A DNA stretch of 64,000 nucleotides from Escherichia coli. GTDB taxonomy: Bacteria > Pseudomonadota > Gammaproteobacteria > Enterobacterales > Enterobacteriaceae. The notes under the pieces are model-generated. The model saw nothing but the letters and a program-made list of their open reading frames with translations. It was not told where the DNA came from and did no database searches. Below, piece by piece: positions 61,290-63,398 of the stretch. The translations under genes and the position numbers were made by a program. Location of the stretch: NCBI RefSeq assembly GCF_003334405.1, contig NZ_QOWM01000003.1, one strand, 5' to 3'. Numbering within the stretch: position 1 is the first letter of the stretch; every line of letters begins with the position of its first letter.

Positions 61290-63398
61290 ATGTCAACCGG
61301 ATTACGTTTCACACTGGAAGTGGACGGCCTGCCGCCGGATGCTTTTGCGGTGGTTTCCTTTCATCTGAACCAGTCACTCTCTTCGCTCTTTTCCCTCGAT
61401 CTCTCCCTGGTCAGCCAGCAGTTTCTCTCCCTTGAATTTGCGCAGGTGCTGGACAAAATGGCCTACCTGACGATATGGCAGGGCGATGAAGTACAGCGCC
61501 GGGTGAAAGGCGTGGTGACCTGGTTTGAACTCGGGGAGAACGACAAAAACCAGATGCTGTACAGCATGAAGGTGCACCCGCCGCTGTGGCGTGCCGGTCT
61601 GCGCCAGAACTTCCGTATCTTCCAGAACGAGGACATCAAAAGCATCCTCGGCACGATGTTGCAGGAAAACGGGGTGACCGAATGGAGTCCGCTGTTCAGC
61701 GAGCCGCATCCTTCCCGTGAGTTTTGTGTCCAGTACGGTGAGACTGATTACGATTTCCTGTGCCGGATGGCGGCGGAGGAAGGCATCTTCTTTTATGAGG
61801 AGCATGCTTACAAAAGTACCGACCAGAGCCTGGTGCTGTGCGACACAGTCCGCCATCTGCCCGAATCTTTTGAAATCCCATGGAACCCGAACACCCGTAC
61901 CGAGGTGAGCACCCTCTGCATCAGCCAGTTCCGCTACAGCGCACAAATCCGCCCTTCTTCCGTGGTGACCAAAGACTACACCTTTAAACGCCCCGGCTGG
62001 GCCGGACGTTTTGAACAGGAAGGCCAGCACCAGGACTACCAGCGCACGCAGTATGAAGTGTATGACTACCCCGGACGTTTCAAGGGTGCCCACGGGCAGA
62101 ACTTTGCCCGCTGGCAGATGGACGGCTGGCGAAACAATGCAGAAACCGCGCGGGGAATGAGTCGCTCGCCGGAGATATGGCCGGGACGACGAATTGTGCT
62201 GACGGGGCATCCGCAGGCGAACCTGAACCGGGAATGGCAGGTGGTGGCAAGTGAACTGCACGGCGAACAGCCACAGGCGGTGCCAGGACGGCAGGGAGCG
62301 GGGACGGCGCTGGAGAACCATTTTGCGGTGATCCCGGCAGACAGAACATGGCGACCACAGCCGTTGCTGAAACCGCTGGTCGACGGCCCGCAGAGCGCCG
62401 TCGTGACGGGACCGGCAGGCGAGGAAATCTTCTGTGATGAACATGGCCGCGTGCGGGTGAAATTTAACTGGGACCGCTATAACCCGTCAAACCAGGACAG
62501 TTCATGCTGGATCCGTGTGGCACAGGCGTGGGCAGGCACCGGCTTTGGCAACCTGGCGATACCGCGAGTGGGTCAGGAGGTGATTGTGGACTTCCTCAAC
62601 GGCGACCCGGACCAGCCGATTATTATGGGGCGTACCTACCACCATGAAAACCGCACACCCGGCAGCCTGCCGGGGACGAAGACGCAGATGACCATTCGTT
62701 CGAAAACCTATAAGGGCAGCGGGTTTAATGAACTGAAGTTTGACGATGCGACAGGGAAAGAACAGGTCTACATCCACGCGCAGAAGAACATGAACACCGA
62801 GGTGCTGAATAACCGCACCACTGATGTGATAAACAACCATGCTGAAACCATTGGCAACAATCAGATGATTGCGGTTACCAACAATCAGATACAGACGGTG
62901 GGTGTCAACCAGATAGAGACGGTGGGCAGTAACCAGATAATTAAAGTGGGTTCTGTTCAGGTGGAAACGATTGGACTTGTTCGTGCGCTGACCGTGGGCG
63001 TGGCGTACCAGACGACGGTAGGTGGCATTATGAACACTTCGGTGGCTCTGATGCAGTCCTCGCAGATCGGTTTGCATAAATCGTTGAGGGTCGGGCTGGG
63101 TTATGACGTCAAAGTCGGAAATAACGTTACCTTCACCGTTGGTAAAACGAAAAAGGATGATACCGGGCAGACCGCGATTTACTCCGCCGGTGAGCATCTG
63201 GAGCTCTGCTGTGGTAAGGCAAGGCTGGTGCTGACGAAGGACGGACAAATTTTTCTCAACGGCACAAAAATTCATTTGCAGGGTAAGGAGCAGGTTAATG
63301 GTGACTCACTGTTGATTAACTGGAACTGTGCAGCCTCGAAATCCCCACCGAAGACCCCTGATGAAAAGCAGGATACGCCGGATATGAGAGAGTACTGA
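61290..63398 (+). CDS. vgrG: VgrG type VI secretion spike protein (gp27/gp5-like), no obvious C-terminal effector extension
   Basis: ATG 61290 with ggagg RBS; N-terminus MSTGLRFTLEVDGLPPDAFAVV...; C-terminal Val-Gly-rich octapeptide repeats (IQTVGVNQIETVGSNQIIKVG...). Confidence 0.85.
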   Translation: MSTGLRFTLEVDGLPPDAFAVVSFHLNQSLSSLFSLDLSLVSQQFLSLEFAQVLDKMAYLTIWQGDEVQRRVKGVVTWFELGENDKNQMLYSMKVHPPLWRAGLRQNFRIFQNEDIKSILGTMLQENGVTEWSPLFSEPHPSREFCVQYGETDYDFLCRMAAEEGIFFYEEHAYKSTDQSLVLCDTVRHLPESFEIPWNPNTRTEVSTLCISQFRYSAQIRPSSVVTKDYTFKRPGWAGRFEQEGQHQDYQRTQYEVYDYPGRFKGAHGQNFARWQMDGWRNNAETARGMSRSPEIWPGRRIVLTGHPQANLNREWQVVASELHGEQPQAVPGRQGAGTALENHFAVIPADRTWRPQPLLKPLVDGPQSAVVTGPAGEEIFCDEHGRVRVKFNWDRYNPSNQDSSCWIRVAQAWAGTGFGNLAIPRVGQEVIVDFLNGDPDQPIIMGRTYHHENRTPGSLPGTKTQMTIRSKTYKGSGFNELKFDDATGKEQVYIHAQKNMNTEVLNNRTTDVINNHAETIGNNQMIAVTNNQIQTVGVNQIETVGSNQIIKVGSVQVETIGLVRALTVGVAYQTTVGGIMNTSVALMQSSQIGLHKSLRVGLGYDVKVGNNVTFTVGKTKKDDTGQTAIYSAGEHLELCCGKARLVLTKDGQIFLNGTKIHLQGKEQVNGDSLLINWNCAASKSPPKTPDEKQDTPDMREY

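What the first reader, a model, noticed from the sequence alone, without database searches (positions are those of the whole stretch)
62820..62980. VgrG C-terminus is a regular Val-Gly octapeptide beta-helix and ends without an effector extension
The stretch VINNHAETIGNNQMIAVTNNQIQTVGVNQIETVGSNQIIKVGSVQVETIG shows the 8-residue periodicity of the gp5-like needle, with near-repeats at nucleotide level (...caaccagatagagacggtgggcagtaaccagataattaaagtgggt...). The protein stops about 140 aa later with no recognisable enzymatic domain, consistent with a cargo-carrying rather than evolved VgrG.
Basis: partly seen in the sequence, partly recalled or inferred. Interest (0 to 1): 0.3.

Follow-up and report, generated by a model that had tools for sequence, protein, structure and literature searches.

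The report
Ordinary E. coli VgrG spike needle
This is the well-known needle end of an E. coli type VI secretion spike protein (the 'vgrE' gene next to the RhsE toxin gene); it carries no toxin of its own and most likely serves to carry the Rhs toxin encoded right behind it.

Summary
An eight-residue xx[V/I]Gxxxx register runs unbroken through aa 519-646 and, more loosely, aa 495-662. Fifteen of 18 glycines fall in one phase; 0 of 100,000 shuffles reach that. A 24-nt near-repeat lies at 62882-62939.

Pfam, NCBIfam, PDB sequence and profile searches and a fold search find only spike needles in the last 140 aa, and no enzyme. About 100 of those residues continue the needle. A 23-aa Pro/acidic tail follows.

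The window is E. coli chromosome: ansP-yncG-yncH-vgrG-rhs, the RhsE locus. This allele is in 2,724 of 5,426 complete E. coli genomes and is annotated VgrG. Val-Gly repeats are what 'Vgr' was named for, so this is already known.

The likely cargo is the Rhs gene 66 nt downstream. Its 47-aa N-terminus holds a single PAAR-type repeat before a Tse5-like cleavage motif.

Two small extras: needle length varies among relatives in whole octads, and the tail (NWNC...PDMRx[F/Y]) co-occurs 10/10 with this Rhs type. Trimer modelling failed.

The parts
61290..63398 (+). vgrG (vgrE-type) CDS, 702 aa plus stop
   Evidence: ORF. RefSeq CDS WP_000103220.1 'type VI secretion system tip protein VgrG' lies at the same coordinates in an identical locus. 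TIGR03361 scores 624 bits against a cut-off of 186, and TIGR01646 'vgr_GE' scores 447 against 122.
61374..62270 (+). gp27-like head domain (aa 29-327)
   Evidence: Pfam Phage_GPD, E 1.3e-74.
62439..62639 (+). gp5-like OB-fold (aa 384-450)
   Evidence: Pfam Phage_base_V, E 7.8e-15.
62772..63275 (+). Needle: 21 octads in one register (aa 495-662). The strict xx[V/I]Gxxxx run is aa 519-646, nt 62844-63227.
   Evidence: 15/18 Gly in phase; 0/100,000 shuffles. Pfam Gp5_trimer_C at aa 467-576. PDB profile hits to VgrG and T4 gp5 needles.
62882..62939 (+). 24-nt tandem near-repeat (2.4 copies) and site of a one-octad length polymorphism
   Evidence: TRF result. Relatives L003 and L006 carry exactly 24 extra nt here, encoding NQIQNIGV or NQIQTIGV.
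63174..63326 (+). End of the needle (aa 629-679): predicted antiparallel strands that form the tip platform, ending ...LLINWN
   Evidence: The monomer model shows strands at aa 629-657. The region aligns to residues 543-611 of VgrG1 in 4mtk and 7q5p. Tail-less relatives end at the position of N679.
63327..63395 (+). 23-aa C-terminal tail CAASKSPPKTPDEKQDTPDMREY (aa 680-702)
   Evidence: pLDDT 41-46. The NWNC...PDMRx[F/Y] end is present in 31 of 120 cluster representatives and in seven enterobacterial loci from the genome scan.
63399..63464 (+). 66-nt vgrG-rhs spacer with an AGAAGGAA ribosome-binding site and no terminator-like site
   Evidence: Sequence. The terminator scan finds nothing in the spacer.
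63465..64000 (+). 5' end of the Rhs toxin gene, which runs off the window
   Evidence: RefSeq annotates 'rhs element protein RhsD', 4,224 nt, in an identical locus. Pfam DUF6531 at aa 46-123, E 1.3e-19.
63465..63605 (+). Rhs N-terminal 47 aa: one PAAR-type repeat (MSGKPAARQGDMTQYGGPIVQGSAGVRIG) plus CSVCP, ending just before PVNPLLGAK
   Evidence: Weak Pfam PAAR_motif match, E 0.05. The segment aligns to the last repeat of the PAAR protein SalCis10, 9rce_c. The Tse5 shell chain 8cp6_B starts at the aligned PVNP. Tse5 is cleaved at K47|P48 (PMC10684867).

Best explanation
This is the C-terminal needle of a canonical, non-'evolved' VgrG (TssI) spike protein of Escherichia coli. It is the vgr gene of the RhsE locus (ansP-yncG-yncH-vgrG-rhs).

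Three copies are expected to intertwine into a triangular beta-helix of the phage T4 gp5 type. In that fold each eight-residue unit forms one strand on one face, the position-3 V/I points inward, and the position-4 Gly sits at the corner. This needle has about 21 octads and is nine octads longer than that of Pseudomonas aeruginosa VgrG1. It ends in a short antiparallel cap that forms the flat tip platform, followed by a 23-residue flexible tail.

The protein has no toxin domain of its own. Its most likely job is to carry the Rhs toxin encoded 66 nt downstream. That Rhs's 47-residue PAAR-like N-terminus would sit on the needle tip. A type VI secretion apparatus encoded elsewhere in the genome would fire the whole spike into neighbouring bacteria.

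Shown here: gene identity, domain order, periodicity, absence of any detectable effector domain, and the conserved vgrG-rhs pairing. Inferred: trimeric beta-helix geometry, the contact between needle tip and Rhs N-terminus, and secretion.
For: Identity:
- The 3-kb junction is 100% identical to many E. coli chromosomes and annotated VgrG plus RHS core protein.
- TIGR03361 and TIGR01646 score far above their cut-offs.
- The Pfam order is Phage_GPD, Phage_base_V, Gp5_trimer_C.
- PDB phmmer matches VgrG1 structures at E 1e-97 to 1e-100.

Needle:
- Octad statistics.
- Profile hits only to spikes, including T4 gp5 needle fragments.
- Indels among relatives come in multiples of eight residues, including an exact 24-nt indel.
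- There are 72 extra residues relative to 4mtk between the anchors HAQKN and CGK (alignments).

No effector:
- Searches of the last 140 aa.
- Relatives end at the same point.
- The literature says the same of the EHEC VgrGs (PMC7216683).

Cargo:
- The Rhs gene follows after 66 nt with no terminator-like site.
- The same pairing is seen in 10 of 10 loci with this VgrG tail: the window, L003, L006/L007, L008 and six genome-scan loci.
- Tail-less relatives are instead followed by DUF2169 adaptors and Tox-PAAR-like effectors.
- The Rhs N-terminus resembles that of Tse5, whose 5-kDa PAAR-like fragment is described as needed for VgrG-dependent secretion (PMC10684867).

Apparatus:
- A paralogue with the same tail lies inside a tssBCEF-hcp cluster (L002).
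- Genome NZ_CP026580.3 holds both an identical vgrG-rhs junction and that core cluster.
Against: - No trimer model was obtained. The single-chain pseudo-trimer failed (pLDDT 26) and the monomer model is only moderate (pLDDT 67). The beta-helix therefore rests on homology and periodicity.
- The Rhs N-terminus matches PAAR_motif only weakly (E 0.05). It amounts to one of the three repeats of a normal PAAR domain, so how it would cap a three-fold tip is unclear.
- The window holds no T6SS core genes. Whether the source strain has an active system was not determined.
- The 10/10 pairing comes from one clade, so the loci are not independent.
Confidence: 0.88

Rival explanations
1. The last 140 residues hide a divergent effector or adaptor domain, making this an 'evolved' VgrG or a DUF2345/TTR-type extended VgrG.
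For: Aa 622-702 have no significant Pfam match. Two distant relatives, P0106 and P0110, do carry 100-130 extra residues after a Gly/Asp-rich linker.
Against: Aa 563-646 stay in the octad register. Aa 612-675 align to the needle end of 7q5p and 4mtk. Only 23 residues remain after the point where tail-less relatives stop, which is too short for an enzyme. The fold search finds only spikes.
Confidence: 0.02
2. The VgrG is a carrier, but its specific cargo is recruited through the conserved C-terminal tail rather than, or as well as, through the needle tip. The partner could be the Rhs shell or another protein encoded elsewhere.
For: The PDMRx[F/Y] end is conserved across a variable linker. It co-occurs strictly with the short-N-terminus Rhs. 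The literature implicates VgrG C-terminal extensions in effector loading (bioRxiv 10.1101/2024.12.20.629533).
Against: Enterobacter, S. bongori and L008 relatives have a shorter tail that ends ...PPxAPE(Q) without the PDMR motif. L008 is still followed by the same Rhs type. No interaction was tested.
Confidence: 0.2
3. The locus is an inactive relic in its host: an intact-looking vgrG-rhs pair that is not expressed, or that lacks a working secretion apparatus.
For: The window has no T6SS core genes. About 1 kb of 30-37% G+C DNA lies upstream. The T6SS-2-type core is present in 2,147 of 5,426 genomes, while this vgrG allele is in 2,724. The EHEC vgrE locus is reported as degenerate (PMC12981562).
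Against: The vgrG reading frame is intact and identical in many genomes. The Rhs gene is full length in an identical locus. At least one genome has both the locus and the core cluster. This reading concerns activity, not identity, so it does not exclude the main explanation.
Confidence: 0.2

Closest known systems
E. coli vgrE/vgrG genes of Rhs elements (Wang, Zhao & Hill 1998, J Bacteriol 180:4102; cited as the source of the name 'Val-Gly repeats' in PMC2660368). Also called the 'vgrE' or 'vgrG2' orphan island of EHEC EDL933, Z2253-Z2262 (PMC12981562, PMC7216683).
   Same: Same gene family and same chromosomal locus next to ansP/yncG/yncH and the RhsE-position rhs gene. One cluster with a 99% identical C-terminal half is named 'VgrE protein' by NCBI (P0036). 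The Val-Gly eight-residue repeat is the feature that gave the family its name.
   Different: Nothing of substance. I could not read the 1998 paper, which is not held, so its repeat counts are not compared here.
Pseudomonas aeruginosa VgrG1 (PDB 4mtk, 4uhv) and P. protegens VgrG1 (7q5p)
   Same: Collinear over aa 13-546 at E about 1e-97 to 1e-100, and again at the needle end (aa 612-675). Same head, OB-fold and needle architecture, with no effector domain.
   Different: This needle has 72 more residues, which is nine octads, between the conserved anchors. From T4 gp5 geometry of about 4.7 A per octad, I infer it is roughly 40 A longer. It also carries the NWNC...PDMRx[F/Y] tail.
P. aeruginosa VgrG1c (VgrG4)-Tse5 pair
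   Same: The Rhs toxin has only a ~47-residue 'cryptic PAAR-like' N-terminal fragment before a PVNP cleavage site and a DUF6531 plug, and it depends on a dedicated VgrG (PMC10684867, PMC7376260). The window's Rhs aligns to the Tse5 shell from its first residue, E 3e-18.
   Different: The residue before the cleavage site is N47 here and K47 in Tse5. Cleavage and VgrG dependence were not tested here. The toxin domain lies outside the window.
Phage T4 gp5 C-terminal beta-helix (PDB 4jiv, 4jiw, 4ku0)
   Same: Eight-residue V-x-G-type repeat. The family profile hits these fragments at E about 1e-3, and Pfam Gp5_trimer_C matches at E 4e-26.
   Different: No lysozyme domain. The Pfam Gp5_C repeat model matches only weakly, E 0.13.
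Evolved VgrGs (for example V. cholerae VgrG1 and VgrG3) and extended VgrGs (EAEC VgrG1 with DUF2345/TTR, PDB 6sjl)
   Same: Same N-terminal spike core. 6sjl matches aa 6-504 at E 4e-23.
   Different: No C-terminal enzymatic domain or DUF2345/TTR domain was detected.

Membership tests
VgrG / TssI spike protein | Sequence membership by curated family models | tested here: met
   TIGR03361 scores 624.3 bits (cut-off 186.35) and TIGR01646 scores 447.1 bits (cut-off 121.8).
VgrG / TssI spike protein | gp27-like head, then gp5-like OB-fold, then gp5-like needle, in that order | tested here: met
   Phage_GPD at aa 29-327, Phage_base_V at 384-450, Gp5_trimer_C at 467-576. Collinear with solved VgrG1 structures.
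VgrG / TssI spike protein | Homotrimer with an intertwined beta-helix | tested here: inconclusive
   The monomer AF2 model has pLDDT 67 and an extended needle region. The single-chain pseudo-trimer failed at pLDDT 26. No multimer predictor was available.
VgrG / TssI spike protein | T6SS core apparatus in the same genome and T6SS-dependent export | not testable with these tools
   The window has no core genes. Genome NZ_CP026580.3, which has an identical locus, carries tssBCEF-hcp. Export needs an experiment.
gp5-type Val-Gly octapeptide needle | Eight-residue periodicity with a small residue (Gly) at a fixed position next to an inward-facing hydrophobic residue | tested here: met
   14 of 16 octads have Gly at position 4 and 12 of 16 have V/I at position 3. 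15 of 18 Gly are in one phase, with 0 of 100,000 shuffles reaching that. Indels among relatives are multiples of 8 aa.
Evolved (effector-fused) VgrG | A C-terminal domain with a recognisable enzymatic or toxin fold beyond the needle | tested here: not met
   Pfam, NCBIfam, PDB sequence and profile searches and Foldseek find none. Only 23 residues lie beyond the needle.
Adaptor-extended VgrG (DUF2345 / TTR) | DUF2345 and/or a transthyretin-like C-terminal domain | tested here: not met
   No such Pfam match. The match to EAEC VgrG1 (6sjl) stops at aa 504.
PAAR-capped cargo (the downstream Rhs as a PAAR protein) | A complete PAAR domain of three repeats, about 90 aa | tested here: not met
   Only aa 2-29 match, weakly, E 0.05. 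That stretch aligns to the last repeat of a 99-aa PAAR protein. It resembles the 'cryptic PAAR-like' fragment of Tse5 and not a full PAAR domain.

The most novel reading that the evidence does not exclude
The conserved extreme C-terminus of this VgrG subfamily (NWNC, then a Pro/acidic linker, then PDMRx[F/Y]-COOH) may be a docking peptide or tip element. It would compensate for the downstream Rhs having only one PAAR-type repeat. Spike capping in this widespread enterobacterial vgrG-rhs module would then differ from the canonical picture of three-repeat PAAR on a flat VgrG tip. One possibility is that the three Cys680 residues and the Rhs CSVCP motif contribute to a shared tip.
Probability: 0.15. 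Interest if true: 0.4.

Novelty: already known. Interest (0 to 1): 0.1.

Why it matters
As a finding it matters little. It rediscovers from raw sequence the feature that gave Vgr proteins their name. It also correctly classifies this copy as a carrier spike and not a toxin-fused one, which helps annotate the window: an orphan vgrG-rhs toxin island at the RhsE locus.

The by-products are of modest specialist interest:
- Needle length changes in whole octads through 24-nt slippage or recombination.
- A conserved C-terminal tail is strictly paired with Rhs toxins that carry a one-repeat PAAR-like N-terminus.

How such minimal PAAR-like fragments mount on a three-fold spike does not seem to be settled. 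In the Tse5 cryo-EM structure, residues 1-29 of the N-terminal fragment were not resolved.

Tried and rejected
1. Pseudo-trimer model. I joined three copies of aa 551-702 with 30-residue Gly/Ser linkers, added the Rhs N-terminal 47 aa, and used a matched 16-row alignment. AF2 gave pLDDT 26, so the result is unusable. It says nothing for or against the beta-helix.
2. Fold search with the monomer model. VgrG spikes rank first, but TM-scores are about 0.2. This is expected, because an isolated chain of an intertwined needle is not folded as it is in the trimer. I used it only as evidence that no enzyme fold is present.
3. The founding paper (Wang et al. 1998) is not held under its PubMed or PMC id. 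Its content is cited from memory and through PMC2660368.
4. The context look-up for P0017 found no record.
5. The genome-collection pattern scan returned 18 loci. Seven are enterobacterial VgrG ends. The two non-enterobacterial loci I checked have the pattern inside ORFs of 22-44 aa. I take the other nine as chance too, which is of the order expected for the pattern's degeneracy.
6. I considered and rejected a hidden effector in the last 140 aa (see rival explanations). I also rejected the long antisense ORFs 61374-62444 and 62502-63275 as genes. RefSeq does not annotate them in an identical locus, and I take them to be shadow ORFs inside a strongly supported gene.
7. The promoter and terminator scans gave counts no higher than in shuffled sequence, so nothing was built on them except the absence of a terminator-like site in the spacer.
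Full report
**What is at the coordinates**

The window region 61290-63398 (+) is one open reading frame. It is aa 513-562 of the protein counted from ATG 61290, and exactly 140 residues follow it. The annotated start in an identical RefSeq locus is 61290, and GGAGG lies 7 nt before that ATG, so the protein is 702 aa.

**Is the periodicity real?**

Written in rows of eight, the sequence keeps one register from about aa 495 to 662.
- In aa 519-646 there are 16 consecutive octads with no indel.
- Gly is at position 4 in 14 of them, and Val or Ile at position 3 in 12.
- Over aa 495-662, 15 of 18 glycines fall in one phase. In 100,000 shuffles of that segment the best value was 10 and none reached 15.

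At DNA level, Tandem Repeats Finder reports one array: 62882-62939, period 24, 2.4 copies, 85% matches. The two best neighbouring units share 19 of 24 bases, whereas elsewhere neighbours share 5-15 of 24. The protein-level repeat is therefore long and old, and the DNA-level repeat is local.

**What the gene is**

The 3-kb stretch 61000-64000 is 100% identical to many complete E. coli chromosomes. There the two genes are annotated 'type VI secretion system tip protein VgrG' and 'RHS element core protein' or RhsD. In one such genome the neighbourhood is patD ... ansP, yncG, yncH, vgrG, rhs, ydcD, yncO, ISAs1. From my own knowledge of the K-12 map, this is the RhsE locus.

The sequence evidence for VgrG is strong.
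- NCBIfam TIGR03361 (624 bits, cut-off 186) and TIGR01646 'vgr_GE' (447 bits, cut-off 122) are far exceeded.
- Pfam gives Phage_GPD at aa 29-327, Phage_base_V at 384-450 and Gp5_trimer_C at 467-576 (E 4e-26).
- The protein is collinear with the solved Pseudomonas VgrG1 structures at E 1e-97 to 1e-100.
- One cluster with a 99% identical C-terminal half is named 'VgrE protein' by NCBI.
- The C-terminal 665 nt occur at 80% coverage or more in 2,724 of 5,426 complete E. coli genomes.

**The last 140 residues**

Searched alone, they give only a weak Gp5_trimer_C match in Pfam (E 0.007) and nothing in NCBIfam. In the PDB the only matches at E of 0.001 or better are the needle ends of VgrG1: 7q5p residues 520-611 and 4mtk residues 515-601. 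A profile of 39 homologues hits only spike proteins. These are VgrGs, phage and eCIS central spikes, and the T4 gp5 beta-helix fragments 4jiv, 4jiw and 4ku0 at E about 1e-3.

An AF2 monomer model of aa 460-702 (pLDDT 67) leaves the octad region extended, as expected for a chain that pairs only with its partners in a trimer. It shows a short antiparallel sheet at aa 629-657 and a low-confidence tail. Its best Foldseek matches in the PDB are VgrG spikes (9mlp, 4uhv, 4mtk, 7q5p) and no enzyme. Nearly all relatives end at the same point as this protein.

The 140 residues therefore divide as follows:
- about 84 further residues in the strict octad register (to aa 646);
- about 33 residues of terminal strands, ending ...LLINWN at aa 679;
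- a 23-residue tail.

There is no room for an effector domain and no sign of one.

**Needle length**

Between two conserved anchors, HAQKN and CGK, this protein has 145 residues where P. aeruginosa VgrG1 has 73 (alignments). The difference is 72 residues, exactly nine octads. Among closer relatives, all indels in the needle are multiples of eight residues: 8, 16 or 24. At the 24-nt tandem repeat, the E. coli paralogue in L003 and the Salmonella relative in L006 have exactly 24 more nucleotides than the window and L008. This is what a structure built of one strand per octad would tolerate. From the published T4 gp5 geometry of about 4.7 A per octad, I infer that nine extra octads add roughly 40 A.

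**Cargo**

The next gene starts 66 nt after the vgrG stop, behind an AGAAGGAA ribosome-binding site and with no terminator-like site between. It is an Rhs protein, with DUF6531 at aa 46-123 (E 1e-19).
- Its first 47 residues contain a single PAAR-type repeat, MSGKPAARQGDMTQYGGPIVQGSAGVRIG, followed by CSVCP.
- The Pfam PAAR_motif model matches only weakly (E 0.05).
- The stretch aligns to the last of the three repeats of a 99-residue PAAR protein (9rce_c).
- From residue 48 (PVNPLLGAK) the protein aligns to the first residue of the Tse5 shell chain (8cp6_B, E 3e-18).

Tse5 of P. aeruginosa is cleaved between K47 and P48. Its 5-kDa N-terminal fragment is described as a PAAR-like domain needed for secretion with the VgrG1c spike, and residues 1-29 of that fragment were not resolved in the cryo-EM map (PMC10684867). 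PMC7376260 calls it 'cryptic PAAR-like'. The closest worked example for how this locus operates is therefore the VgrG1c-Tse5 pair. That this Rhs is cleaved at N47|P48 and rides on this VgrG is inference.

**The tail and its partner**

Tail-less relatives end where this protein reads ...INWN. This protein continues CAASKSPPKTPDEKQDTPDMREY.
- Among 120 cluster representatives, 39 have [N/S]WNC. Of these, 31 end in DMRx[F/Y], with a variable Pro/acidic linker between.
- Some relatives (Enterobacter, S. bongori, L008) have a shorter tail ending ...PPxAPE(Q).
- A pattern scan of one genome per species found the full motif in Escherichia albertii, Buttiauxella brennerae and Trabulsiella, seven loci in all. 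The two non-enterobacterial loci I checked carry the pattern in ORFs of only 22-44 aa, and I take the other nine as chance matches too.

In every evaluable locus the tailed VgrG is followed after 56-89 nt by the same kind of Rhs with the short N-terminus. That is 10 of 10: the window, L003, L006/L007, L008 and six scan loci. Four tail-less relatives are instead followed by a DUF2169 adaptor and Tox-PAAR-like effectors.

The tailed proteins form one clade, so these are not independent observations, and the function of the tail is unknown. A short acidic C-terminal tail that runs down the prism has been described for Salmonella VgrS (bioRxiv 10.1101/2024.12.20.629533).

**Apparatus**

The window holds no T6SS core genes. 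A paralogue with the same type of tail lies next to tssF, tssE, tssC, tssB and hcp (L002). That core segment is present at 80% coverage or more in 2,147 of 5,426 complete E. coli genomes. One of them, NZ_CP026580.3, also carries a 100% identical copy of the window's vgrG-rhs junction. Whether the source strain of this window has an active system was not determined. About 1 kb of 30-37% G+C DNA lies upstream of vgrG.

**Comparison with what is known**

'Vgr' stands for Val-Gly repeats. The name is attributed to Wang, Zhao and Hill 1998 on E. coli Rhs elements (PMC2660368). From memory, that paper described vgrE and vgrG upstream of RhsE and RhsG with an eight-residue Val-Gly periodicity, but I could not read it.

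The orphan vgrE (also called vgrG2, Z2262) island of EHEC is described in PMC12981562 and PMC7216683. The latter states that none of the EHEC VgrGs has a known C-terminal effector domain, and that their divergent C-termini probably select different cargo. T6SS-dependent delivery of E. coli PAAR-Rhs toxins is reviewed in PMC6730261.

The finding is therefore already known in both its parts.

**Verdict**

Novelty: already known. Interest: low (0.1). The only mildly new points are the whole-octad length polymorphism and the strict pairing of the NWNC...PDMRx[F/Y] tail with one-repeat PAAR-like Rhs toxins. The most novel reading not excluded is that this tail takes part in mounting the Rhs on the spike. 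I give that about 15%.

Noticed in passing
window 63465-63605 (Rhs aa 1-47), continuing to 64000: The downstream Rhs has only one PAAR-type repeat plus a CSVCP motif before a PVNPLLGAK motif. That motif aligns to the first residue of the cleaved Tse5 shell, so N-terminal autocleavage at N47|P48 is predicted. How a one-repeat fragment caps a three-fold spike is unclear.
   Followed up: partly
window 63327-63395 (VgrG aa 680-702): A conserved C-terminal tail: NWNC, a Pro/acidic linker, then PDMRx[F/Y]-COOH. It is present in 31 of 120 related clusters and in E. albertii, Buttiauxella and Trabulsiella. It is always followed by the short-N-terminus Rhs (10/10 loci), and tail-less relatives are followed by DUF2169 plus Tox-PAAR-like effectors. 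Function unknown.
   Followed up: partly
window 62882-62939; L003 about 585-833; L006 about 1703-1951: An exact 24-nt (one octad) insertion/deletion polymorphism at the tandem repeat. All other needle indels among relatives are multiples of 8 aa.
   Followed up: yes
window 60200-61200: About 1 kb of 30-37% G+C DNA between yncG/yncH and vgrG, against 50-67% inside vgrG and rhs. It looks like an island boundary or a possible silencing region. Promoter-like matches are no more frequent than in shuffled sequence.
   Followed up: no
window 61374-62444 (-) and 62502-63275 (-): Long antisense ORFs of 356 and 257 aa lie inside vgrG. RefSeq does not annotate them in an identical locus. I take them to be shadow ORFs of a G+C-rich, repeat-rich gene.
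   Followed up: no
E. coli genomes NZ_CP178690.1 and NZ_AP042519.1 (hits H1, H2): In two genomes the otherwise identical vgrG-rhs stretch spans about 3.78 kb instead of 3.0 kb and includes an IS1A transposase, so the module is interrupted by IS1.
   Followed up: no
proteins P0106, P0110, P0087, P0002, P0038: P0106 and P0110 are extended relatives with a Gly/Asp-rich linker and about 100 extra C-terminal residues. P0087 ('NADAR family protein'), P0002 (Hcp domain plus VgrG C-terminus) and P0038 (VgrG C-terminus plus RHS repeats) look like chimeric or frameshifted gene calls.
   Followed up: no
window 1576-7344 (+): A 1,922-aa ORF, the largest in the window. I did not examine it.
   Followed up: no
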